Assembly (NCBI GenBank): GCA_963575745.1
Contig: CAUYUJ010000225.1
Span: 1,488,001 to 1,511,205, forward strand
DNA length: 23,205 nt
Direction: 5' to 3'
DNA from: Prorocentrum cordatum
Taxonomy: Eukaryota
Made by a program: the position numbers and the translations under genes. The stretch's first letter is position 1; every line of letters starts with the position of its first letter. The notes under the pieces were generated by a model. That model was given only the letters and a program-made list of their open reading frames with translations. It was not told the origin of the DNA and ran no database searches. Below, in pieces: positions 1,650 to 22,034 of the stretch.

Positions 1650-4625
1650 AGTCGTGCCTCCTGAGGGCCTCTTGGGGACCTATCGGGTCTTCGTGGGGGC
1701 GTCTGAAGGGCTTTTGGGGGTATCTCCGTGCTTCCTCAATTGGCTGTTGGAGGCACCTCTTGGGTGCTTCTTGGGGGGGCGTCTTGGGGCTTCTTGGGGT
1801 CCCTTGGGGGCATCGTCGGGGTTCACCTGGCAATCGGAAAGTGATGTTCTGCAATCTGAAGCCGTCATTGGCCGTCTGGGCTGCGTGGAGGTCCGACTTG
1901 AGGCCGCCTGGGGCCACATTGAGGCAATCCGGAAGCCTCCCAGGGGCCTCCTGGAGACAGTTTTGATGCATCGAAGGCACTGTTAGGCTATCTTGGAGTC
2001 CCTTGTACGTGTCCTGGGGGCCTTTCTGGGCCTCTTGGGAGGCTTTGGGGGGCCTCGTCGGACCACTTGGGGACTCTTGGGGCCTCCTGTGGGCCTCTTA
2101 AGGTGGAAGGCTCTGCTGTTGGGTTCGCGTTCTCCCTCTTGGGCCCCTTTGGGGCCTTCTTGGTGCCCTCTCGGGCCGCCTTTGGCGCCTCAAGCACCGT
2201 CTTGGGGCCCTGGTGGGCCGTCTTGGGGTCCTGTTGTTAGGTCGGGCATGTCCTCCTACAGGCCGATTTTGGAAGAAACATGAAAAATAATCAACAAGTG
2301 TTCAAAAATAGTCAGAAGAGTACGAAAAATCGCCCCCATACCATTTCTCTGCCACTCCTGAGTATTCTTCCTGTAGAGGGACATGCCCGACTTAACCGTG
2401 TCGGAGGCCTCTTGGGCTATCTTGGAGCGGTCTTGGAGGCCTCTTGGGCCGTCTTGGAGCGTCGGGATGCCCAATGGCTGAAACCTCGAAAATCAATCAA
2501 AAACCGATGGCAAGATAATGGTTTTTGCCTCTTGGGGCCTTCGTGGGAGGCCTCTTGGAACCTCTTCGGCCCCCTGGGGAGCTTCTTGGGGCCTCTTGGG
2601 GGATTCTCGGGGCCTCCTGAGAGCATCTCGGGGTGGACGGCTCGGATTGTCGGTTCGTGTTACTCCTCTAGGCCCCCTCTTGGGGCCGTCGTGGGGCCCT
2701 TTCGGGCCGCCTTGGGCGCCTCTGGCGCCGTCTTGGGGCCCTCTTGAGCTGTCTTGTGGCCGTCTTCGAGGCCTCTGGGGCTGTCTTGGGGTGGACATTG
2801 GGGCATCTTGGCCGTCGTGGAGCGTCGGGAAACTGAAATGGCGGAACTCGAAAGTCCTTGAAACACCACGGAAGATTAATGATTTTGCCTCCTGGGGCTC
2901 CTTGAGAGGCATCTGGGAGGCCTCTTGAAGCGTCTTGGAGGCCTCTTGGATAGTCAGGGGCTAATTCTGGGGTAATCTCGGGCCGTCACTGGTCGTTTTC
3001 GCAGTGTGGAAGCGCCATTTCTGGCGATCCGGGACCATCTTCGGGCGATTTTGCAAAAAGCCCCCGTCGCCCCAGCCTGGCCGCCAGGGCCCCGGTCCTC
3101 CCATGCGCTGTGGGAATCTCCCGATCGAGTCGGTTCGAATCGGCACGCACAAATCGATTCGATTCGAGACGGAGGAGCCAGAAAGACCCCTGTCGTGGCC
3201 GTCTCGAAACCGTTTCGGGCCGTCTCGGAACGCTCTGGGGGCCTTCCAGGCGCTTCCTGGAGTCGTCCTGGGCCGTCTGGAATCTGGAGGCTCTTGGCCG
3301 AGGGCGGCTGTGAAGACTCTTGGGGGCCGTGGGCCGTGCCTCTTGGGACGGCGTCGAGGATCGTCAGGAGTGTCTCACGGCGTCTCGGGGGAGTTTTTGG
3401 GTGCCTCGTTGGGGCCTCCTGGGGCTTCCTGGGGAGCCTCCTGGGAACTTCTTGGGGCCTCTTGGGGGCTTTTTGGGGGCTGTTGGGGGCGTCTCGGGGG
3501 CCTCCGGGGGCGGAGAGCTCGAAATGTTGGCTGGTGTTCCCCCTCGGAGCTCTCTGGAGACGTTCTTGGGGCGTTCTTGGGCTGCCTTGGAGGCCTTTTG
3601 GGCTGTCTTGGGGGCCTCTTGGGTAATCTCGACGTTTTCGTGGGGGCCTGATGGGGCGATATTTGGGAGTCCGGGACCGTCTTGGAGCGCCGGGAAGCTG
3701 AACAGGCAGAAACGGGAAGGCCCATCAAAAATCTAAACAAATCAATAATTTTGGCTTTTTGGGGCCCTTTTGGGGGTCCTCTTGGAAGCCCCTTGGGCCG
3801 TGTTGGAAGCAGTGTGGGCCATCTGGAGGCCATTTTGGGGGCGTTATCTCGGTGACTGCAGCCCTCTTGGAAGCCTCTCGCGGCCCTTTTCATTTGTGAT
3901 GAGGCTGTCTTGGGCCGTCTGGGGGCGTCCCTGGGCCGTCTCGGCACCCTCGTTGGGGCCTGTCAGGGCGATATTTGGGTGTCCGGGACCGTCTTGGAGC
4001 GCTGGGAAACTGAACAGGTAGAAACGCTGAAATGCACCCAAACCACAGAGAAATCAAAGGTTTTGGCTTTTTGGGCCCTTGGAGGAATGCTGTTGGAGAC
4101 TCTGTGGGCCGTGTTGGAAATCTTGTGGGCCATCTGGAGGCCATCTTGGGCGTGTTCGAAAGATGTTTTCGCGTTTCGAGCCCTCCTGGAGGCCTCTCGC
4201 GGCCCTTTTCATGTGTTGGGGCTGTTTTGCGCCGTCTGGGGCGGCCCTGGGCTCGCGGCGCCCTCGTGGGAGCCTGTTTGGACGATAATTGGGTATCCCG
4301 GACCGTCTTGGAGCGCCGAGAAGGTGAACAAGCAGAAACGGGAAAGTCCATCAAAAACCTAAACAAATCAATGATTGTGGCTTCTTGGGGCCCTTTTGGG
4401 GGTCCTCTTGGAAGCCCCTTGGGCCGTGTTGGAAGCCTTGTGGGCCATCTGGAGGCCATCTTGGGGGCGTTAGAACGACATTTCGGTGACTGTACCCCTC
4501 CTGGAGGCCTCTCGCGGCCCTTTTCATCCGTGTTGGGGCTGTCTTGGACTGTCTGGGGGCGTCCCTGGCGGCCCGGTGCCCCTATGGAGATTCAGGGGCC
4601 CCCTCCTGGGCCCCTCCGCCTCGTG
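1650..4625 (+). repeat. Dispersed CTTGGGGC/GGCCTCTTGG-rich repeat family, including about three tandem ~313-bp units at ~3650-4560
   Basis: The motif CGATAWTTGGG...GGACCGTCTTGGAGCGC...GAACAG recurs at ~3657, ~3969 and ~4283. More diverged units lie at ~2450 and ~2810. Confidence 0.85.
2237..2395. mobile_element. MITE family A copy inserted in a dispersed repeat (non-intronic)
   Basis: TTAGGTCGGGCATGTCCTCCTACAGG ... CCTGTAGAGGGACATGCCCGACTTAA. Internal TCAAAAATAGTCA is shared with the 17365 copy. 8-bp flanks TCCTGTTG and CCGTGTCG match at 5 of 8 positions. Confidence 0.85.
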
Positions 4626-6799: not shown

Positions 6800-7740
6800 C
6801 CCTCCCCTCCTGCTCGTCGTCCTCCTCCTCCTCCTCCTGCTCGTCCTCGTGCTCCTCCTGCTCGTCCTCTTTCTCCTGCTCCTCCTCCTCCTCCTCCTCC
6901 TCCTTTCTCCTGCTCCTCCTCCTCCTCCTCCTCCTCCTCCTCCTGCTCGTCCTCGTTCTCGTCCTCCTCGTCTTGCTCGTCCTCCTCCTCCTGGTGCTCT
7001 CTCCTCCTCCTCCTCCTCCTCCTCCTCCTCCTCCTCCTCCTCCTCCTCCTCCTCCTGGTGGTCCTCGTTCTCCTCCTCCTGGTGCTCTCCCCCCACCTCC
7101 TCCTCCTCGTCCTCCTCCTCCTCCTCCTCGTCCTCCTCCTCCTCTTCCTCCTCCTCCTCCTCCTCCTCCTCCTCCTCCTCCTGGTAGTCCTCCCCCTCCC
7201 CTCCTCCTCCTCCTCCTCCTCTTCCTGGTCGTCCTCGTTCTCGTCCTCCTCGTCTTGCTCGTCCTCCTCCTCCTGGTGTTCTCTCCTCCTCCTCCTCCTC
7301 CTCCTCCTCCTCCTCCTCCTCCTCCTCCTCCTCCTCCTGGTGGTCCTCGTTCTCCTCCTCATGGTGCTCTCCCCCCCCCTCCTCCTCCTCATCTCCTCCT
7401 CCTCCTCCTCCTCCTCCTCCTCCTCCTCCTCCTCCTCCTCCTCCTCCTTCCCCCCCTCCTCTTCTCTCCTCCTCCTCCTCCTCCTCCTCCTCCTCCTCCT
7501 CCTCCTCCTCCTCCTCCTCCTCCTCCTCCTCCTGGTAGTCCTCCCCCTCCCCTCCTCCTCCTCCCTCCTCCTCCTCCTCTTCTGGTCGTCCTCCTCCTCC
7601 TGGTCGTCCTCCTCCTCCTGCTCGTCCTCCTCCTCCTCCTGCTCGTCCTTCTTCTCCTGCTCCTCCTGCTCCTCGTCCTGCTCCTGCTCGTCCTCGTCCT
7701 CCTGGTCTTGCTCGTCCTCCTCCTCGTCGTGCTCTTGCCC
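6800..7740 (+). repeat. Long degenerate (CCT)n polypyrimidine tract with internal higher-order duplication
   Basis: Direct reading; the block at ~6945-7100 recurs at ~7228-7385. Confidence 0.95.
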
Positions 7741-9879: not shown

Positions 9880-11230
9880 TCGTCATGGGGCCCAAGGGCT
9901 CGGAGCCCCCATGGGCGAGGGGTAATGCTGCCGATGCGGCTCCAGGGGGTCATGAGACTCACAGGGTTCACAGGGCTCATGGGGTTCTTTGGGGTCATGG
10001 GACTGTTTGTGCACATCGGGCACGGGGCTCATAATGCTGAGTGGCTTTTACAGAGGTCATGGGGGTCATAGGAGGCTCATGGTGCTCATAAGGGTCCTGG
10101 GGCTCCCTGGAGTCATCAGCTCTTGGGGGCCATTGGGCTCATAGAGCTTGCAATGCTCCGGGGGACCATAGGGCCCATATCGCTAACAGTGCGCGTAGGC
10201 CTCGTAGGGCTCACGGGCCCGATTGGGGTGAAGGGGCAAGTCGGGGCCATAGGGCTCATAGGGCCCGTAGGCCGTATACAGCAACTGGGCTCGTAGGGCT
10301 CAGAGGGAGGTCTCATGGGTCTCGCATGGCTTTACGGCTCCTAGTGGTGAGGGGGTTCTAGGGCTCATAGGACGCATAGGCCTCATAGGGGTCATCGCGC
10401 TCATATGGTGTCATGGACTCCATGACACCATATGAGCGCGATGACTTTCTGACTCCATGACACCATATGAGCGCGATTCTCCAGACTCCATGACCCCATA
10501 CCCCCCCGACCCTCCATGACTCATGGAGGGTCGGGGGGGTATGGGGCTCGGCTCATTGAGTTCATGGGGCTCCTGGGGCTCGTGAGCTCATAAAGGGCAT
10601 GGGGCTTCTAGTGCTCATGCGCCTCAAAGGGCTCATCAGGCTTATGGGGCTCATGGAGCTCGGAGAGCTCATGGGCTCGTAGGACTCTTAAGGCTCATTG
10701 GGCTCCTAGGGCTCATTGGAGTAATAGGGTTCGTGGGGGTCATAGGGCTCATAGGGCTCATACGGCTCATGGGCTCGTAGGGCTTGAAGGGCTCATAGGG
10801 TTCATAGGCCCCATAGAGCCCATGGGGCTCATAAAGCTCATAGGGCTCATAGGGCTCATAGGGCTCATAGGGCTCATGGGGCCCATGGGGCCCATGGGGC
10901 CCATAGGGCTCATAGGGCTCATAGGGCTTAAGGGCTCATAGGGCTCATGGGGCTCATAAGGCTCATAGGGCTCATAGGGCTCATAGGGCTCATAGGGCTC
11001 ATAGGGCTCATGGGGCTCATAGGGCTCATTGGGCTCATAACGCTCATAGGGCTCATATAGCTCATTGGGCTCATGGGCTCATAGGGGTCATCGGGCTCAT
11101 AGGGCTCATAGGGCTCATAAAGCTCATAGGGCTCCGAGGCCTCACAGGGCTCATGGGATCTCATGGGGCACCATGAGGCACCATAGTTGTCGTAGGGCTT
11201 GTGGGGGCGAGAGGCCTCATATGGCTGATA
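9880..11230 (+). repeat. 9-bp satellite (AGGGCTCAT)n, purest at ~10830-11130
   Basis: Direct reading; explains the (SPM)n/(EPY)n ORFs. Confidence 0.92.
10391..10546. repeat. Two perfect palindromes (27-bp and 26-bp arms, 1-nt spacer) plus an extra arm copy
   Basis: Arms at 10391-10417/10419-10445 and 10494-10519/10521-10546; the right arm of the first is repeated at 10451-10477. Confidence 0.95.
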
Positions 11231-11239
11231 GGGGTATGG

Positions 11240-11880
11240 CCTCTCGGGGCTCTCGTGGGGCGCCTTTTGAAGCTCTTTTGGGCTGTGTGGCGGCCCTCCT
11301 GGGCCGTCCCGGGACCCTCTTGGGCCGTCCTGGGGGGCTTGGGTCGTCTTTGGGCCCTCTTGGTTCTTCTTGGTGACCTCCTGCGGCCTTCTTGGGGCTC
11401 TCTGGTAAGCCTCTTGGTGCTCTTTGGGGCCGTCTTGGGGCTCTCTTGGGTCGTTTTGGCGCTCTTTGGGGCTGTCTTGGGGCTCCCTTGGGGGCTTCTT
11501 GGGCCGTCCTGGGGCGATCTTGGGGGCCTCTTGGGCCGTCTTGGACGCGATGAAGGCCAAAGAAGCGGATATGCTAAAAATGCACGTTTTCCAAAAGGGA
11601 ATGGGACGATTTTGACCTCTTGGGGGTCTTCTTGGGGGGAAGCCTCCTGGCGCGTCTTAAGAGCATCTTGGGCCGTCTTGAAGCCACCTTGAGGCCTCTT
11701 TGAGCGCTCATGAGCCGTTCTGGAGCGGTCTTGGGCCGCCTTGGGGCTTTGCGGGACCGTCCGGGGATGGCCGGGAGAAGCTCCCGAAACCGAACATCGG
11801 ATTTGAAGTCGGTGGGAGCTCCCAAAGCCGAATTGATGTACGGGGGGGTCAGGGGAGGCTTTCCGCTATAAGAATATTCG
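11240..11880 (+). repeat. Copy of the CTTGGGGC-rich dispersed repeat family
   Basis: Same GGCCGTCTTGG/GGCCTCTTGGG units and A-rich spacer (…GATTTTGACCTCTTGGGG) as 1650-4625. Confidence 0.8.
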
Positions 11881-11887
11881 AAGAGGA

Positions 11888-12510
11888 ATATATATATATA
11901 TATACACATACATACATACATACATACATACATACATACATACATACATACATACATACATACATACATACATACATACATACATACATACACATATATA
12001 TATATACATATACATATATACATTTATATACACATACCTACATACCTACCTACCTACCTGTCTACCTGCCTACCTACCTACCTACCTACCTACCTACAGA
12101 CATACACACATGCACACATACACACATACACACATACGCACATACGCACATACGCACATACACACATACACACATACACACATACACACATACACACATA
12201 CACACATGCATACATACATACATACATGCATACATACATACATACATTCATTCATTCATTCATACCTGCATACATGTACACACATACATACACATACACA
12301 CATACACACATACACACATACACACATACACACGTACGCACATACATACATACATACATACCTCCATGCACATATACATACATACATACATACATACATA
12401 CATACGTACAAACATACATACATACGTACATACGTGCATACATACAAACATACATGCACACATACACACATACATACATACATAAATACATACATACATA
12501 CATACATACC

Positions 12511-12541
<31 letters not shown>

Positions 12542-12988
12542 GATACATACATACATACATACACACATACATACATACACACATACATACATACATCCAT
12601 CCATACATCCATCCATCCATCCATACATACATACATACATACACACAGACAGACAGATATACATACATACATACACACATGCATACATGCATACATGCAT
12701 GCATGCATGCATGCATGCATACGTACACATACATACATACACACATACATGCACACATACATACATACATACATTCATACATACACATATGCATACATAC
12801 ACACATAAATATATACATACATACATGCATGCATGCATATACACATACATACACACGTCCATACATACATACACACATACATACAGACCGACAGGCAGAC
12901 AGACATACATGCATGCATGTATGCATGCATACACATATTTGCGCATGTATGTATGTATATATACATATATATATATACACATACCTAC
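11888..12988 (+). repeat. ~1.1-kb compound (TACA)n/(CA)n/(TACC)n microsatellite
   Basis: Direct reading; explains the HTYI/MYVC ORFs. Confidence 0.97.
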
Positions 12989-17214: not shown

Positions 17215-17358
17215 TCACCCGACGCTGTCGCCCACGCCGCAGGCGGCCGGGGTCTCGAAGCGCACGACGAAGGAGCACGCGTAGGTCTCCGTGATGGACA
17301 GCAGCGCGTCAGCTGGAGCACACTCGAACAGGACCTCGACGCTGCGGTTGACGGAGGC
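17215..17358 (-). CDS. Exon 7 (terminal): MRH domain C-terminal part and stop
   Basis: ASVNRSVEVLFECAPADALLSITETYACSFVVRFETPAACGVGDSVG* in ORF 17215..17445. AAG|G acceptor. Confidence 0.88.
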   Translation of the reverse strand, partial: ASVNRSVEVLFECAPADALLSITETYACSFVVRFETPAACGVGDSVG

Positions 17359-20300
17359 CTTGTGTTTGGTCGGGCATGTCCCCCTACAGGCGGACTTTGG
17401 GCGAAAGAAGCACAAATAGTCAACCGAATTCTCAAAAATAGTCAAGGAGAGTCCAACAAATCGTCCCCAGACTATTTTTGATCAATTTTGAATGTGCCTC
17501 CTCTGGAGGGACAGGCCCGACTTGAGCCTTGTGGCACCACTCGCCGTCGCCCATGTTCAGGCGGCTGTAGTCGCGCCTCAGCTGCCCGCTCTCCCAGAAC
17601 GCCTCCGCGAAGGCCCCTCCGCGCCCCAGCACGAAGGGCCGCCCCTCCTCGCCGATCTGGTGGGTGACCCTGTCGAGGAGGCAGACCTTGTAGATGGCGC
17701 TGCCCTCGTCCAGCCGGAAGCAGCCCTTCTCTGGGGGAGCGAAGCCTGGCAGAAACACAAAGACTCGGAGGTCCGCGCGGATGTCTCGGATCCGCGCTGG
17801 ACCCCCCTGGCGCGCTCCGCGCGCCAGGGAGGGGGGTCCAGCGCGCGGATCCGAGAACTCCGCGCGGACCTGCGAGTCTTGCTGCTTTACGCCACTCTTC
17901 GCGCCCCCCTTCTCCGCCACGGCCAGGAACGCGTGATCGGGGCCACCCGGCAGCCCCGAGTACTGCGGCTGCTGCGCCAGCTGGCGCCCCCTCTCGGCGT
18001 GTCGCGCCCGCGCCGCCGCGCCGAGCAGCGCCCTCGACGCACGCTCGGCCTGCCCTGGGCCCTCTGCCTCGAGACAGCGGTCCGGGCACCTGGCGTCAGG
18101 TCGAGCATGCCCCCCCTACAGGCGGAGCTTGGAACGGAAATCATGAGCAACATACCCAAAATGCTCCCAAGATGGCCGAAAACAATCGAGAGATCGCCCC
18201 CAGAGTATTTTTTGTGACTATTTTTGACGACTCCTCCCGTAGAGGGACATGCCCGACTTAAACCTGGCGCCAGTCTGCCACTCGTCCTCCCCGGCGCAGC
18301 AGTCGCAGATGCCGTCGTTCACCGCCGAGTGCGGCACCAGCCGCGCCCTGGCGCCCGACGGCTCTCCCGCCCCCGGAGGAGCGGCGAGGCGGGCCCAGCC
18401 GCAGTAGAAGCCGGCAGGAGGACGCCAACTCTCTACACCGCACACTGTACGGTGGGGGCAATAGGACAAGGAACCCTTCGATAAGGAATCCAGGGTCTGG
18501 AAGCTCGTGGATCTCTAATCTAGAGCCCTCCTAGATGGAGTCGGAGTAGATGGGGTCGAAGGATCGCGCCGCATCGGCGATACATCGGCGATGCATCGGC
18601 GATGCACCGGCGATGCATCAGCGACGTCGGCGATGCATCGGCGACGTCCGCGTGAAGAAAATCGGGCTCCGCATCGAGCCGCACCGGCGATGCATCGGCG
18701 ATGCGGCGCGATCATCCGACCCCATCTACTCCGACCCCATCTGGGAGGCCTAGAGGCAAAGGACAAGGAACCCTTCGATAAGGAATCCAGGATCTGGAAG
18801 CTGCTGGATTTTCAGTCGTGCATCGGCCATGGACATCACCGCCGCCCTTCTCGGGTAAGGACTCCTCCAGCGTCTGCAGCCTGCTGGGCAGACTCCTTCA
18901 CAAGCGCCTCCACCGTACACACCGATTCTGGGCCTGGGCTCACCCTGGGCCCAGGATCTGCGCGGACGCCCTCCCGGCTGGGGCACGGAGGCACGGATAG
19001 GCGAGCACGCTCCACTACCCGCAGAGCAACTACGCGCAAATGGCCTGGATCCGCCGCGGGGGATCTACGATAAATCACACCGAAGCTGGCGTGTGTTTGT
19101 CGGACGTTTGCGAGCAGGCACTCTGCGAGTGGTGGAACGCGCTCCGTGCATGGAGGCCATGCACGCCGCTGCTGGGCCCGGGCTCGGCAGGGCCAGGCGC
19201 GGTGCAGGCGCGCAGAGGCTGGTGCCCTCCGAGCCGGGCAGGCCCGGGCGGGCGACCGCCCCCGAGCACGCGGACGTGGCCGGCTCGTCGCTGCCGTCGG
19301 CGCAGTCGCAGAAGTCGTCGTTCAGCACCGCCGGCAGGCCGAGCGCGGGGCGCAGGCCGTCGGCGCAGGCGAACTCGGCGAGGCCCGCGGCGGCAGGGGC
19401 GTAGCGCTCGCGGAGGCGCGGGGCGACGCCGCGCAAGAGGTCCCGCGCATGGCTGCCGGTGCCCTCTGCAAGGCAGCACCGCTCGAAGGTGAAGCTCGCG
19501 TCCCAGCAGGCGGGGTTGCCGCCAGGCCCCTGGCAGCAGAGCTCTTCCAGAGGGTCCGGGGCCTCCAACTTGAAGGGAGCTTCTACACCAGATCCGGAGG
19601 CGCAAACCTCCGCGCTGCTCGGATGTTGCCGGAGGTGGCCCTGGCCACAGGAGCTCTCAGCGCTTCCAGGGGGGCATCCGATGGTCTCCAGAGCACCGCT
19701 GACGAGGCCTAGGAGGCCCCGGGGGGGCCCAAGATGGAGCGAAGAACCGTGGACACCTTGGCTCAGGACCATCCCCTGCAGCCTCAAACCTGCCGGGGGT
19801 CCCAACTCGTGTGGTGACAGGCCACGCGGCGACCTCGGAATACCAAGAGACCTCACCGCACGGTCCGTCACCGCACGGTTTTGGGACCCTGGAGGCCTCA
19901 GTCACCCGATACATTCTCGGAGAAGTACCCGTGTCCCAATAATACTGAGCGGGGACCCCGAACCCCACGGACTCACCACTCGGTGTGGTCACCACACAGC
20001 TTGGGGGGCCCCCGATCACCTCCTCCATCGGCGGGGGCGGGCTGGTGGGCTACAGTCAACCCGTACAATGGGGACGCACGATAAGGATGCAAAGGCCTTG
20101 GAAGGGCGTAGATGTTTTTCGCCCGGGTTGGTTTTCGCCCGGTGCGTTTCACCCGATTCGTTTCGCCCGGGGTTTGCTTTCGCCCGGGTTGGCTTTCGCC
20201 CGGGTTGGCTTTCGCCCGGGTTGGCTTTCGCCCGGATTGGTTTTCGCCCGGGTTGGCTTTCGCCCGGGTTGGCTTTCGCCTGGTTGGCTTTCGCCCAGGT

Positions 20301-20606
20301 TGGCTTTCGCCTGGGTTGGCTTTCGCCCGGGTTGGCTGTCGCCCAGGTTGGCTTTCGCCCGGGTTGGCTTTCGCCTGGGTTGACTGTCGCCCGGGTTGGC
20401 TGTCGCCTAGGCTCGTTTTTGCCTGGGTTCCCGCGTCCATCAGGAGCGCGGGCAACGGGCATGGATCCCGGGAGATGGCCGCGGGCCGGAGGAGAACAGG
20501 AAAGGCAAGACCGCGAGGTGCATGGAGGAGGGAGACCAGGAGGGGAACGGGAGGACGGGGAGTCGTCGTCGTAGTAGTCGTCCTCCTCGTTGTCGTAGTC
20601 GTCGAT

Positions 20607-20644
<38 letters not shown>

Positions 20645-22034
20645 CGACGACATCGACGTCGACGTCGACGTCGTGGTCGTCGTCGTTGTGATATTGTCGT
20701 GGTGGTGGTCGCCGTCGTTGTCTTAGCCGTTGTCGTCGTCGCCGTACTCGCCGTTGTCGCTGTCGTCGTCGTCCTCCTGGTCGCCGTCGTTGCCGTCGTC
20801 CTCGTCGTGGTCGTTGTCGTCGTAGTGGTCCCGCCCGTCAAGGTGCGCCTGCCCGACCCGACCCGCCCGTTAGGGTTCGCGCGTGCTGAGTCGAGCTCGC
20901 CCCACACTTTTGTGCCCCGCCCGCCCGACCCGACCCGCGTGATAGGGTCCTCCCGACACGACCCGACCCGTCCCGCCCGTTAGGGTCCGCCCGCCCGACC
21001 AGACCCGCCCGTTAGGGTTCACGCGTGCCCACTCGAGCGCGCCCCATACTTTAGTGTCCCGCCCGCCCAACCCGACCCGACACATCCCGCCCGTCAGGGT
21101 CCGCCCGACCCGATCCGACCTGCCCGTTGAAGTTCACGCGTGCTCGCTCCAGCGTGCCCCATACTCCAGTGACTCCAGTGCCCCGCTCGCCCGACCCGAC
21201 CCGCGTGTGAGGGTCCGCCCGACCCCACCCCGACCCGTCCCGCCCGTTAGGGGGGTCCGCCCGCCAGACCGGACCCGCCCGTTAGGGTTCACGCGTGCCC
21301 ACTCGAGCGCGCCCCACACTTTAGTGTCCCGCCCGCCCGACCCCGACCCGCCCGTTAGGGTCCGCCCACCCACCCGACCCGTCCGCCCGTTAGGGTCCGC
21401 CCGACCCGACCCAACCGCGTTAAAGGCGTGCTCGTCCGGCGCGCCCAAACACTTAGTGTCCCGCCCGCCCGACCCGACCCGCCCGTTAGGGTCCGCCCGA
21501 CCCGACCCCACCCGTCCCGCCCGTTAGGGTCCGCCTGCCCCACCCGACCCGCCGGTTAGGGTTCACGCGTGTCGCTCGGGCGTGACCCACACTTCAATGC
21601 CCCCGCCCACCCGACCTGACCCGCCCGTTGCGCCGAGGGCCTCCCCGGAGGCCCAAAAAGGGGCAAGCGAGGGAAGGGCAGCGGTGTCGGTGTATCGAAC
21701 AGGGCAGGGCTGTCTAGTAAACGCCCAGGGCCGTTTAGTAAGCGCCAATCATCGAATACGGGTGGTTTTTCCTCCCTTGATTCTCCTTCCTGGACCCTCC
21801 TCGATCCCCCTCCCCCTCCGAAGCTCGCAAAGCGGCCCAGAGCCCGCGGAGGCTCCGGACCCTCAAGGCTGGCGAGAAGCCGCCCGTCCAGCAGCCGGGG
21901 CCCGAGGGCGGCGGCATCGCGCCCTCGGCAGCCCGGGGCGCGGCCGCGCCGAGGGCCGCAGGCACCGCGGCCGAGGGCCACGCCCTGCACCGAGGCGAGC
22001 CGCCAGAGGGCGCGCGGCCCAGGCTCCGCCCCAT
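17215..22034 (-). CDS. PRKCSH: Spliced gene for a glucosidase II beta subunit (PRKCSH)-like protein. Preferred exon model: 22034-21870, 19541-19178, 18933-18908, 18430-18264, 18089-17909, 17725-17528, 17358-17215 (1245 nt, about 414 aa)
   Basis: Fragments in ORF-track translations match the family in the correct order. LDLa-like 1: EFACADG...[21 protein letters not shown]. LDLa-like 2: FYCG...VPHSAVNDGICDCCAGEDEW...RCPDRC. MRH: GPDHAFLAVAEKGCFRLDEGSAIYKVCLLDRVTHQ...LG...MGDGEWCHKASVNRSVEVLFEC...ITETYACSFVVRFETPAAC. Reading phases are consistent across all junctions in the model. The symbol denotes family likeness; orthology is not proven. Confidence 0.85.
17365..17525. mobile_element. Introner/MITE family A copy forming intron 6 (intron 17359-17527, GC-AG)
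   Basis: Ends are TTTGGTCGGGCATGTCCCCCTACAGG and CCTCTGGAGGGACAGGCCCGACTTGA (inverted). Perfect 8-bp TSD GCCTTGTG at 17357-17364 and 17526-17533. Confidence 0.9.
17528..17725 (-). CDS. Exon 6: MRH domain N-terminal part
   Basis: GCFRLDEGSAIYKVCLLDRVTHQ...GDGEWCHK in ORF 17432..17920. AAG|G acceptor and AAG|GC donor. Confidence 0.88.
17726..17908. mobile_element. Palindromic element (family B) forming intron 5
   Basis: Nearly full-length fold-back (AAGACTCGGAGGTCCGCGCGGA...GGCGCGC TCC GCGCGCC...TCCGCGCGGACCTGCGAGTCTT). Terminal GGGGGAGCGAAG/CTTCGCGCCCCC. Direct repeat CCCTTCTC at 17724-17731 and 17907-17914. Confidence 0.8.
17909..18089 (-). CDS. Exon 5: RCPDRCLEAEG...helical linker...GPDHAFLAVAEK
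   Basis: CAG|G acceptor. My translation in the frame continuous with ORF 17432..17920 gives the PRKCSH-like CPxxC and GPxxxF motifs. Confidence 0.85.
18096..18261. mobile_element. Introner/MITE family A copy forming intron 4 (intron 18090-18263, GT-AG)
   Basis: Ends are TCAGGTCGAGCATGCCCCCCCTACAGG and CCCGTAGAGGGACATGCCCGACTTAA. Perfect 8-bp TSD ACCTGGCG at 18088-18095 and 18262-18269. Confidence 0.9.
18264..18430 (-). CDS. Exon 4: second LDLa-like module (FYCG...VNDGICDCCAGEDEW)
   Basis: ORF 18218..18469. AG|GT donor at 18263; 5' boundary approximate. Confidence 0.85.
18463..18809. mobile_element. Nested element in intron 3: 50-bp inverted arms enclosed by ~50-bp direct repeats
   Basis: Direct repeats AGGACAAGGAACCCTTCGATAAGGAATCCAGG... 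at 18463-18512 and 18760-18809. Inverted arms at 18527-18576 and 18699-18748 (4 mismatches) surround an internal CATCGGCGATG 11-mer array. Confidence 0.75.
18908..18933 (-). CDS. Exon 3 (tentative micro-exon GPESVCTVE; may extend towards ~18846)
   Basis: CAG|G acceptor at 18933 is in the phase needed by exon 2. AG|GC donor after 18908 is in the phase needed by exon 4; other in-phase donors exist further on. Confidence 0.4.
19178..19541 (-). CDS. Exon 2: LCCQGPGGNPACWDASFTFERCC and first LDLa-like module
   Basis: Lies within ORF 19065..19871. The acceptor is uncertain (19541 or 19562, both in frame). The donor at 19177 is favoured by a 14-bp junction direct repeat; 19225 is a same-phase alternative. 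Confidence 0.8.
20115..20430 (+). repeat. 16-bp minisatellite (TTGGCTTTCGCCCGGG)n within intron 1
   Basis: Exact units at 20189-20204 and 20205-20220; roughly 19 copies in total. Confidence 0.93.
20562..20828 (+). repeat. Degenerate (GTC)n microsatellite within intron 1
   Basis: Direct reading. Confidence 0.92.
20829..21630 (+). repeat. Complex C-rich minisatellite (CCCGACCCGACCCGCCCGTTAGGGTCCG variants) within intron 1
   Basis: More than ten CCCGTTAGGGT cores, interspersed with recurrent TTCACGCGTG...CTCGAGCGCGCCCCAYACTTTAGTGTCCCG blocks. Confidence 0.88.
21870..22034 (-). CDS. Exon 1: putative signal peptide and first CW..CC half-motif (MGRSLGRAP...AAVPAALGAAAPRAAEGAMPPPSGPGCWTGGFSP)
   Basis: ATG at 22034 lies 25 nt after an SL-like motif. 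CWTGGFSP is completed by (E)LCC in the next exon, paralleling CWDASFTFERCC. GC donor at 21869. Confidence 0.7.

What the first reader, a model, noticed from the sequence alone, without database searches (positions are those of the whole stretch)
17357..18269. One MITE family made two introns in the same gene, with both splice sites supplied by the 8-bp TSD
Seen on the coding strand: CGCCAG|GT-[166-bp element]-CGCCAG|GT for intron 4 and CACAAG|GC-[161-bp element]-CACAAG|GC for intron 6. In both, the TSD has AG at positions 5-6 and GT/GC at 7-8. The first TSD copy gives the donor and the second gives the acceptor, so splicing restores the original codons exactly (TGA-R-CPDRC; WCHK-ASVNR). The element itself contributes no splice dinucleotide, and both copies are in the same orientation. 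Established: Introner elements are known in dinoflagellates, and 8-bp TSDs typify hAT, P and Merlin transposases. Inference: this family may be undescribed, and the identical register of AG|G in both TSDs suggests target preference or a spacing constraint.
Basis: partly seen in the sequence, partly recalled or inferred. Interest (0 to 1): 0.85.

Follow-up and report, generated by a model that had tools for sequence, protein, structure and literature searches.

The report
Transposon copies spliced out as introns
Two copies of one small inverted-repeat transposon sit inside a glucosidase II beta-like gene and are removed from its mRNA as exact introns, using splice sites made by the 8-bp duplication each insertion created; this is a real case of an intron-making mechanism already described in other algae.

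Summary
Two copies of one TIR element (166 and 161 bp) lie in a PRKCSH-like gene on the minus strand. Each is flanked by a perfect 8-bp duplication, CGCCAGGT or CACAAGGC. A third copy lies at 2237-2395.

RNA-derived contigs from 4 of 4 laid runs skip each element plus one duplicate. The 8-base ambiguity allows only one canonical register each: GT-AG (18263..18090) and GC-AG (17527..17359). The spliced frame stays open and aligns with 16 homologues.

So this is an introner-type MITE that takes both splice sites from its target-site duplication. That mechanism is in print for Polarella glacialis (4-nt AGGH class; an 8-nt class with five frames) and Florenciella. I therefore rate it a new member of a known kind.

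The CDS has GC3 of 93.5%, which argues against a Symbiodiniaceae-type dinoflagellate. A GC-rich haptophyte-like alga is my unverified guess.

Outside the finding, the two other RNA-verified introns are also repeat-bounded hairpin elements, but non-canonical. Intron 5 (8-bp repeat GAGAAGGG) allows only GG-AG. Intron 3 (823 nt, 6-bp repeat) has no AG acceptor in any register. This could be relaxed splicing or an empty-site allele; I could not tell which.

The parts
18096..18261 (-). Element A1, 166 bp, a TIR element with no coding capacity; it forms the body of intron 4
   Evidence: RNA hairpin -85.3 kcal/mol, z -4.9
18262..18269 (-). Upstream duplicate CGCCAGGT of A1; its last two bases GT are the splice donor
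18088..18095 (-). Downstream duplicate CGCCAGGT of A1; its bases 5-6 (AG) are the splice acceptor
18090..18263 (-). Intron 4 as spliced, 174 nt, GT-AG, phase 2 in an Arg codon AG|G
   Evidence: Joint 18087>18262 in 4 of 4 runs (in X15 with only 27 letters on the shorter side); only canonical register; also absent from P0019
17365..17525 (-). Element A2, 161 bp, same family and orientation; it forms the body of intron 6
   Evidence: hairpin -67.8 kcal/mol, z -3.75
17526..17533 (-). Upstream duplicate CACAAGGC of A2; GC is the donor
17357..17364 (-). Downstream duplicate CACAAGGC of A2; AG is the acceptor
17359..17527 (-). Intron 6 as spliced, 169 nt, GC-AG, phase 0
   Evidence: Joint 17356>17526 in 4 of 4 runs; only canonical register; absent from P0019
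2237..2395 (-). Element A3, 159 bp, third copy of the family in the same orientation, in a satellite-like stretch. Flanks are CGACACGG and CAACAGGA (5 of 8 alike)
   Evidence: No RNA evidence was laid here
17726..17908 (-). Intron 5, 183 nt: a near-perfect palindromic element of another family between 8-bp repeats GAGAAGGG (17914-17907 and 17731-17724). The best register is GG-AG
   Evidence: Joint 17723>17907 in 4 of 4 runs with 8 ambiguous bases; registers; hairpin -155.2 kcal/mol, z -11.6; dozens of other contigs share its core (tables 2 and 7)
18409..19231 (-). Intron 3, 823 nt, between 6-bp repeats CCGGCT (19237-19232 and 18414-18409). No register gives an AG acceptor. Its ends pair, and it holds a nested foldback at 18457-18809
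   Evidence: Joint 18408>19232 in 3 of 4 runs, not in X16; registers; fold z -12.95 on 20 shuffles; nested repeats; 3' end retained in P0019
17215..19545 (-). Host gene (5' end not delimited), glucosidase II beta subunit-like (PRKCSH-like). Exons seen in RNA contigs, as the aligner placed them (repeat bases counted at either end; splice registers): 19545-19232, 18408-18262, 18087-17907, 17723-17526, and 17356 down to the stop at 17217-17215, with 3' UTR beyond
   Evidence: PF12999 47.4 bits against cutoff 34.9; PF13015 23.7 against 23 on P0019; alignment with 16 homologues

Best explanation
Family A is a non-autonomous DNA transposon (a MITE of about 160 bp with TIRs of roughly 25-30 nt) that makes an 8-bp target-site duplication.

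Two independent insertions hit coding exons of a PRKCSH-like gene at sites reading NNNNAGGY. After duplication, the upstream copy ends in GY next to the element, which serves as the donor. The downstream copy carries AG at positions 5-6, which serves as the acceptor.

The spliceosome therefore removes the element plus exactly 8 bases, and the original codons return.

- **Shown:** the anatomy, the family relationship, exact removal from RNA, and an intact conserved reading frame.
- **Inferred:** that removal is spliceosomal; that the insertions were tolerated because the target happened to contain AG|GY; that the TIR hairpin helps by bringing the two sites together; and that the element's 3' end plus the first duplicate base (CTGAC, CAAAC, CTAAC) acts as a branch-site-like motif 6 nt before the AG, which would fix the register.
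For: - **Anatomy:** perfect 8/8 duplicates and TIRs. Three copies of one family in the window, with one of them outside this gene in satellite-like DNA. That fits DNA transposition rather than intron-specific spread.
- **Other copies elsewhere:** RNA contigs match the element terminus and then diverge at 17368, in 7 contigs of X1 and 5 of X16 (table 7).
- **Removal from RNA:** both joints appear in 4 of 4 runs, 2 of them recorded as polyA RNA, from 3 studies.
- **Splice register:** only one of nine registers per intron is canonical.
- **Reading frame:** the joined ORF of 326 aa stays open and aligns with 16 PRKCSH homologues across the junctions.
- **Independent source:** P0019, from a separate data source, lacks introns 4-6 while still carrying the end of intron 3. 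Introns 4-6 were thus removed from a molecule that was still unspliced elsewhere.
- **Chance:** AGGY at positions 5-8 occurs in 0.83% of CDS 8-mers.
- **Structure:** the introns fold with their ends paired.
- **Precedent:** the same logic is published for other algae.
Against: - No genome was available, so there is no census, no TSD logo, no autonomous partner and no empty site.
- All laid runs are assembled contigs, so junction read counts, lariats and retention levels are unknown. Two of the four runs have no recorded library kind.
- The joined form would look the same if it came from a DNA allele lacking the insertions, and the tool did not report the joined form in DNA runs (section 5b).
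- The two neighbouring introns are removed just as exactly without canonical sites, so GY-AG may not be what drives removal in this organism.
- The copies are only 64-77% identical, so recent mobility is not shown.
- The proposed branch site lies unusually close to the acceptor and is only an inference.
Confidence: 0.8

Rival explanations
1. Structure-guided or relaxed removal. All four introns of this gene are taken out because they are hairpins bounded by direct repeats, as in the non-canonical introners of Amoebophrya or the nonconventional introns of euglenids. On this view the GT-AG and GC-AG in family A are helpful but not required.
For: Intron 5 allows only GG-AG, AA-AG or AG-AG. Intron 3 has no AG acceptor in any of 7 registers. 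Yet both are skipped exactly, in 4 of 4 and 3 of 4 runs. All four introns pair their ends, with z from -3.75 to -12.95. Such introns are described in four other lineages.
Against: Both A copies have a full canonical AG|GY in one register, which chance gives in about 0.8% of sites each; this argues for selection by a normal spliceosome. The rival does not contradict the TSD reading for family A; it only adds to it. RNA-level removal of introns 3 and 5 is itself not proven.
Confidence: 0.1
2. Empty-site allele. The mRNA comes from a second haplotype or paralogue that never received the insertions, so the 'junctions' are simply the uninterrupted gene.
For: Precise loss of the element plus one duplicate is exactly what an empty site looks like. 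It would explain the non-canonical introns 3 and 5 without any unusual splicing. P0019 shows a transcript that keeps the end of intron 3. No DNA run holding the locus was found: 0 of 24 listed runs hold half or more of its words.
Against: It needs one haplotype free of four separate insertions from at least three families. It also needs the other haplotype to be nearly silent: unique intron 3 sequence has depth 1.08, 0, 0, 0 against exon depths of 57, 28, 17, 12 (table 2). P0019 has the end of intron 3 but lacks introns 4-6, so it would need a third haplotype. The A copies are old (64-77% identity) and intron 3 carries a nested insertion, which makes presence/absence polymorphism less likely. 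It does not explain why both A duplicates carry AG|GY.
Confidence: 0.05
3. The elements landed in pre-existing introns, or the repeats arose by intron duplication or reverse splicing, and did not themselves create the introns.
For: None specific. MITEs do often sit inside older introns.
Against: Each intron consists of nothing but the element plus one duplicate copy, so no older intron sequence is left. TIRs, differing duplicates and a non-genic copy fit DNA transposition and not reverse splicing.
Confidence: 0.02

Closest known systems
Polarella glacialis introner-like elements, class 14 (4-nt TSD AGGH) and class 3 (8-nt TSD, five frames, both orientations). Roy et al. bioRxiv 10.1101/2020.10.14.339549; I read passages and section 5
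   Same: TIR/TSD DNA elements whose insertion creates an intron, with splice sites recruited from the duplication. Class 14 takes both sites from the TSD. Class 3 has an 8-nt TSD used in several frames. Donors are GT, GC or GA, and a G follows the AG.
   Different: Here AG|GY sits at positions 5-8 of an 8-nt duplicate in both genic copies, but n = 2. No sequence comparison with those classes was possible, because their supplemental dataset was not readable here. The host composition does not look dinoflagellate.
Aureococcus anophagefferens introner elements, as described in Roy et al. and in the Fig. 2F legend of Gozashti et al. 2022, PMC9860276
   Same: Short TIR elements with an 8-bp TSD in a very GC-rich marine alga, spliced out as introns.
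   Different: Those elements carry one splice site (or both) themselves and take at most one from the TSD. Some add 12 bp to the mRNA. Family A carries neither dinucleotide and leaves the mRNA length unchanged.
Florenciella introners (Gozashti et al. 2022, Fig. 2E legend) and the 'co-opt both' class in Dataset S7 of Gozashti et al. 2025, PMC12130899
   Same: The element carries neither splice site; both are co-opted from the insertion site.
   Different: The one 'co-opt both' row I read (Emiliania huxleyi fam4: 45 copies, all GT) has a 4-bp TSD and was called LTR-like.
Non-canonical TIR/direct-repeat introns of Amoebophrya (PMC7789003, passages), and of Fritillaria borealis and euglenids (review PMC11282704, passages)
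   Same: This applies to introns 3 and 5 only: direct repeats across the exon/intron boundaries, inverted repeats that pair the intron ends, and no GY-AG.
   Different: Amoebophrya repeats are 3-5 nt; here they are 8 and 6 nt. RNA-level removal is not proven here. The two family A introns are canonical.

Membership tests
Introner element (a transposon family whose copies are introns) | Similar sequence at two or more unrelated intron positions | tested here: met
   A1 and A2 lie in different exons with different duplicates, and A3 lies elsewhere
Introner element (a transposon family whose copies are introns) | The intron equals the element (plus duplicate) and is removed from mRNA | tested here: met
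   Joints in 4 of 4 runs; registers; P0019
Introner element (a transposon family whose copies are introns) | Genome-wide family creating many introns | not testable with these tools
   No genome held. Metagenome scan gave 1 chance hit in a bacterial gene, and the viral scan gave 0. The only hints are 7 and 5 RNA contigs with other flanks (table 7)
MITE / non-autonomous TIR DNA transposon | Terminal inverted repeats | tested here: met
   Arms of 25-26 nt at 80-88% complementarity; six termini share the motif
MITE / non-autonomous TIR DNA transposon | Target-site duplication of fixed length | tested here: met
   8/8 at A1 and A2; 5/8 at A3
MITE / non-autonomous TIR DNA transposon | Small size, no coding capacity | tested here: met
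   159-166 bp
MITE / non-autonomous TIR DNA transposon | Autonomous partner with the same TIRs, or proof of mobility (empty sites) | not testable with these tools
   No transposase family in the 48 frames scanned, out of 103 open frames of at least 110 aa; no genome
hAT / P / Merlin / Novosib superfamilies (8-bp TSD; list recalled, not from a call) | 8-bp TSD | tested here: met
hAT / P / Merlin / Novosib superfamilies (8-bp TSD; list recalled, not from a call) | Superfamily-specific transposase or terminal motif | not testable with these tools
   No autonomous copy is available. The termini T-Y-A-R-G-T do not obviously fit the hAT end motif as I recall it. An E. huxleyi introner family with a RepBase hit to Novosib-1_EmiHux is listed in PMC12130899 Dataset S7, but no sequence is given there to compare
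[quoted passage not shown] | The donor dinucleotide and the acceptor AG both lie in the duplicate, none in the element | tested here: met
[quoted passage not shown] | Sequence homology to the published classes | not tested
Non-canonical direct-repeat/inverted-repeat introns (Amoebophrya type), for introns 3 and 5 | No GY-AG in any register; direct repeat across the boundaries; ends paired | tested here: met
Non-canonical direct-repeat/inverted-repeat introns (Amoebophrya type), for introns 3 and 5 | Removal happens at the RNA level | tested here: inconclusive
   Contigs skip them and P0019 retains the end of intron 3, but an empty-site allele is not excluded
Glucosidase II beta subunit-like (PRKCSH) host gene | Pfam PF12999 and PF13015 above the curated cutoffs | tested here: met
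   PF12999 47.4 bits against 34.9; PF13015 23.7 against 23 on P0019, where PF12999 alone is below cutoff at 26.9

The most novel reading that the evidence does not exclude
This GC-rich alga (probably not a dinoflagellate; perhaps a haptophyte) turns exon insertions of several unrelated hairpin transposons into exact introns, whether or not they offer GY-AG.

All four RNA-verified introns of one gene are repeat-bounded TIR elements from at least three families, and two of them have no canonical register. The 8-bp-duplicating elements also appear to insert preferentially at NNNNAGGN: AGG sits at positions 5-7 in 4 of 4 sites, including one outside this gene. That would make the classic proto-splice site a transposase target.

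If so, this would be a further lineage with relaxed or structure-assisted splicing of transposon-derived introns. The element's own TIR would double as 5' splice-site context at one end and, as its complement, as branch-site context at the other.
Probability: 0.3. Interest if true: 0.75.

Novelty: new member of a known kind. Interest (0 to 1): 0.45.

Why it matters
This gene is a clean, RNA-backed example of how a transposon that carries no splice sites can still create a harmless intron. The duplication made on insertion supplies both sites, so the coding sequence is restored to the base.

It also packs four transposon-derived introns from at least three families into about 2 kb. They run from canonical (GT-AG, GC-AG) through GG-AG to no recognisable sites at all. 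If the non-canonical removals are real splicing, one locus would give a graded series for testing how much a strong terminal hairpin can replace splice-site sequence. It would also allow a test of whether proto-splice sites reflect transposase target choice or later selection.

Practically, gene models that insist on GT-AG will misread such genes.

Tried and rejected
- **Whole-genome census:** no genome is held for this window.
- **Collection scans:** I scanned public collections with a 22-nt degenerate TIR pattern. The metagenome scan gave one locus, L001, which is a chance match inside a bacterial ABC-transporter-like coding region. The viral scan gave none. This says nothing about how common the family is.
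- **Window-wide MITE scan:** I looked for 8-bp repeats flanking TIRs with at least 11 of 14 matches. Of 60 hits, 59 lie in micro- or minisatellite tracts and 1 is A1; 20 mononucleotide shuffles gave 0 each. A2 did not pass the TIR threshold. No further family emerged.
- **Transposase search:** I scanned 48 of the 103 open frames of at least 110 aa, roughly those of 180 aa or more. Only PF12999 passed its cutoff. A fatty-acid-desaturase match at 20411-20980 is below cutoff.
- **Rfam:** no match.
- **Organism:** the protein atlas gave only weak PRKCSH-like leads (0.78) with no useful taxon. Cluster names showed that one distant homologue (P0007, 84% identity over 24% of the query) is a Crypthecodinium cohnii entry, which does not place the window. 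The E. huxleyi genome paper is not held.
- **Supplements:** the supplement of Gozashti et al. 2022 could not be read, and bioRxiv supplements are closed. I therefore cannot say that this family is absent from published lists.
- **Literature:** searches for introners, MITEs or non-canonical introns in E. huxleyi or haptophytes found no description of this element. They did find the donor statistics and the Dataset S7 rows.
- **Rejected, recursive splicing of intron 3:** the final acceptor would still not be AG.
- **Rejected, U12-type AT-AC:** no register fits.
Full report
**1. What is there**

Read on the minus strand, the region holds two inserts with the same architecture.

| Copy | Duplicate | Upstream copy | Element | Downstream copy |
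|---|---|---|---|---|
| A1 | CGCCAGGT | 18269-18262 | 166 bp, 18261-18096 | 18095-18088 |
| A2 | CACAAGGC | 17533-17526 | 161 bp, 17525-17365 | 17364-17357 |

- The two inserts align along their whole length.
- Their ends are inverted repeats of about 25 nt at 80-88% complementarity.
- A 16-nt terminus motif with up to 3 mismatches occurs 6 times in the 23 kb, against 0.29 expected; 0 of 100 shuffles reached 6. The six hits are the ends of three copies.
- The third copy, A3 (159 bp, 2395-2237, same strand), lies in a satellite-like stretch with flanks CGACACGG and CAACAGGA, alike at 5 of 8 positions.
- Element-only identity is 64%, 67% and 77%. The termini are 80-93% identical and the interiors 52-73%. 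These are diverged members of one family and not recent duplicates of each other.
- The elements are AT-richer (43-51% GC) than the coding sequence around them (74.9% GC).

**2. The host gene**

- The frames on the minus strand encode a glucosidase II beta subunit-like protein. PF12999 scores 47.4 bits against a cutoff of 34.9.
- Joining the exon pieces seen in RNA contigs gives one open frame of 326 aa up to a stop at 17217-17215.
- This frame aligns with 16 PRKCSH-like proteins across all four junctions. At most a single-residue gap in most homologues falls beside a junction.
- The 5' end of the gene was not delimited. The longest contig carries 214 further letters that did not lie on the stretch I laid.

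**3. RNA evidence**

- One run search listed 24 runs. Of these, 20 hold part of the stretch and none holds half of its words; the top shares are 0.38-0.42, which is roughly the exon fraction.
- I laid four runs from three studies: X1 and X2 (library kind not recorded) and X15 and X16 (recorded as polyA RNA). All are assembled contigs, so they show presence and not amounts.
- Joint 18087>18262 skips 174 bases and joint 17356>17526 skips 169. Each has 8 ambiguous bases and each appears in 4 of 4 runs. For the first joint, X15 has only 27 letters on the shorter side.
- Enumerating the nine registers gives exactly one canonical choice each:
  - GT-AG for 18263..18090.
  - GC-AG for 17527..17359.
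- In both introns the donor is positions 7-8 of the upstream duplicate and the acceptor is positions 5-6 of the downstream duplicate. The element supplies neither dinucleotide.
- A protein from another source, P0019 (234 aa, on a 1083-nt contig), is 98% identical to the query exon. It runs uninterrupted across the junctions of introns 4, 5 and 6.

**4. Is it more than chance?**

- In this CDS, 0.83% of 8-mers have AGGY at positions 5-8 and 4.1% have it in any register. Two random insertions would both be spliceable in this way about once in 14,000.
- A scan for 8-bp repeats flanking TIRs found nothing in 20 shuffles. In the real window, outside satellites, it found only A1; A2 fell below my TIR threshold.

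**5. How it most likely works**

Family A behaves as a MITE that acts as an introner. Insertion at NNNNAGGY duplicates the target. The spliceosome then uses GY from one copy and AG from the other and removes the element plus 8 bases, so the codons are restored. Intron 4 splits an Arg codon as AG|G, and intron 6 lies between codons.

Three further points are my inferences, not results.

- **Hairpin.** The TIRs fold the intron into a hairpin with its ends together: -85.3 and -67.8 kcal/mol, z -4.9 and -3.75.
- **Branch-site-like motif.** The element's last bases plus the first duplicate base read CTGAC, CAAAC and CTAAC in the three copies. This sits 6 nt before the AG. If it is used, it would fix AG at duplicate positions 5-6 and would explain the conserved C at position 1.
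- **Two-way TIR.** The opposite TIR end, T-Y-A-R-G-T, is the complement of that motif. The same TIR could therefore provide 5' context at one end and branch context at the other.

**6. The register question**

- AGG occupies positions 5-7 in A1, in A2, in the 8-bp repeat of the neighbouring intron 5 (GAGAAGGG), and in the 3' flank of A3.
- The background frequency of AGG at that offset is 1.9-3.5%.
- Four sites, three of them under selection for splicing, cannot decide. In Polarella glacialis an 8-nt-TSD class uses five frames.

**7. What lies around it**

*Intron 5*
- Joint 17723>17907, 183 nt, seen in 4 of 4 runs.
- It is a near-perfect palindrome of another family (-155.2 kcal/mol, z -11.6) between 8-bp repeats.
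- Its core is shared by dozens of other RNA contigs (50 and 47 loose ends in X1), so that family is abundant.
- No register gives GY-AG or GA-AG. The nearest is GG-AG.

*Intron 3*
- Joint 18408>19232, 823 nt, seen in 3 of 4 runs (not X16).
- It lies between 6-bp repeats CCGGCT and its ends pair (z -12.95 on 20 shuffles).
- It holds a nested foldback.
- It has no AG acceptor in any of 7 registers.

*P0019*
- Its first 12 residues are the in-frame read-through of the last 37 bases of intron 3.
- A transcript therefore exists with intron 3 still present but introns 4-6 already gone.

*How to read introns 3 and 5*

Two readings remain open.
- Relaxed or structure-assisted splicing, as described for Amoebophrya, Fritillaria and euglenids.
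- An element-free DNA allele that supplies the mRNA.

- Unique intron 3 sequence has almost no RNA depth: 1.08, 0, 0, 0 against exon depths of 57, 28, 17, 12.
- The inserts look old.

Neither point proves it. The tool did not report whether the joined form exists in DNA runs.

**8. Which organism**

- CDS GC is 74.9% and GC3 is 93.5%. The window gives 45 tandem-repeat rows. The donors seen are GT, GC and GG.
- By my recollection of published genome compositions, this does not fit Symbiodiniaceae or Polarella.
- It does fit a very GC-rich marine alga. Emiliania huxleyi has 65% GC, 56-65% GC donors, 35-40% GT, about 4% GA and AG acceptors (Feldmesser et al. 2014, PMC4028052, passages).
- This remains a guess at roughly two in three.

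**9. Comparison with what is known**

- Roy et al. (bioRxiv 2020; passages and section 5) describe three relevant patterns in P. glacialis:
  - class 14, with both sites from a 4-nt TSD AGGH;
  - classes 6, 8 and 10, with an 8-nt TSD GHN6 and one site carried by the element;
  - class 3, with 1334 introns, an 8-nt TSD, five frames and both orientations.
- Gozashti et al. 2022 (PMC9860276, passages) show Florenciella introners that co-opt both sites, and Aureococcus elements with an 8-bp TSD.
- Dataset S7 of Gozashti et al. 2025 (PMC12130899) lists three introner families for E. huxleyi CCMP1516:
  - one of 45 copies, 'co-opt both', with a 4-bp TSD;
  - one of 6 copies with a RepBase hit to Novosib-1_EmiHux;
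  - one of 5 copies.
- I could not read the 2022 supplement or any bioRxiv supplement.
- The mechanism is therefore known. Whether this particular family is already listed somewhere I cannot say.

**10. Verdict**

- Novelty is that of a new member of a known kind.
One gene holds four consecutive transposon-derived introns from at least three families, and two of them lack canonical splice sites.

Noticed in passing
window 17724-17914 (- strand): Intron 5 is a 175-bp near-perfect palindromic element of a different family between 8-bp repeats GAGAAGGG. It is skipped exactly in 4 of 4 runs, but the only near-canonical register is GG-AG. Its core is shared by dozens of other RNA contigs, so the family is abundant.
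   Followed up: partly
window 18409-19237 (- strand): Intron 3 (823 nt) is bounded by 6-bp repeats CCGGCT with paired ends and has no AG acceptor in any of 7 registers. Even so, it is skipped exactly in 3 of 4 runs. A database protein (P0019) begins with the read-through of its last 37 bases, so it is retained in some transcripts.
   Followed up: partly
window 18457-18809: A foldback is nested inside intron 3: 56-nt direct repeats (18457-18512 and 18755-18809, 93% identical) around a 236-nt inverted repeat that includes an 11-nt tandem array (18571-18644).
   Followed up: no
window 2229-2403 (- strand): Third copy of family A lies in a satellite-like stretch. Its flanks match at 5 of 8 positions, and the 3' flank CAACAGGA again has C at position 1 and AGG at positions 5-7. 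Whether it lies in a transcribed gene is unknown.
   Followed up: partly
whole window; e.g. 42-789, 6801-7725, 10550-11154, 11888-12933, 20117-20407: The window is unusually rich in tandem repeats, with 45 TRF rows. These include a 7-mer of about 107 copies, a CCT array of about 308 copies, an ATAC array of about 262 copies and a 16-mer of about 18 copies just upstream of the gene. A 21-mer satellite recurs at 2675-2761, 3409-3511 and 11278-11544.
   Followed up: no
window 20411-20980 (+ strand): An open frame has a weak fatty-acid-desaturase match (PF00487, 22.7 bits, below the 29.7 cutoff). It may be an exon of a neighbouring gene on the other strand.
   Followed up: no
window 17215-19545, coding sequence: Codon bias is extreme: GC3 is 93.5% and CDS GC is 74.9%, while the family A elements are 43-51% GC. 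This makes the elements stand out as AT-rich islands within the exons.
   Followed up: yes
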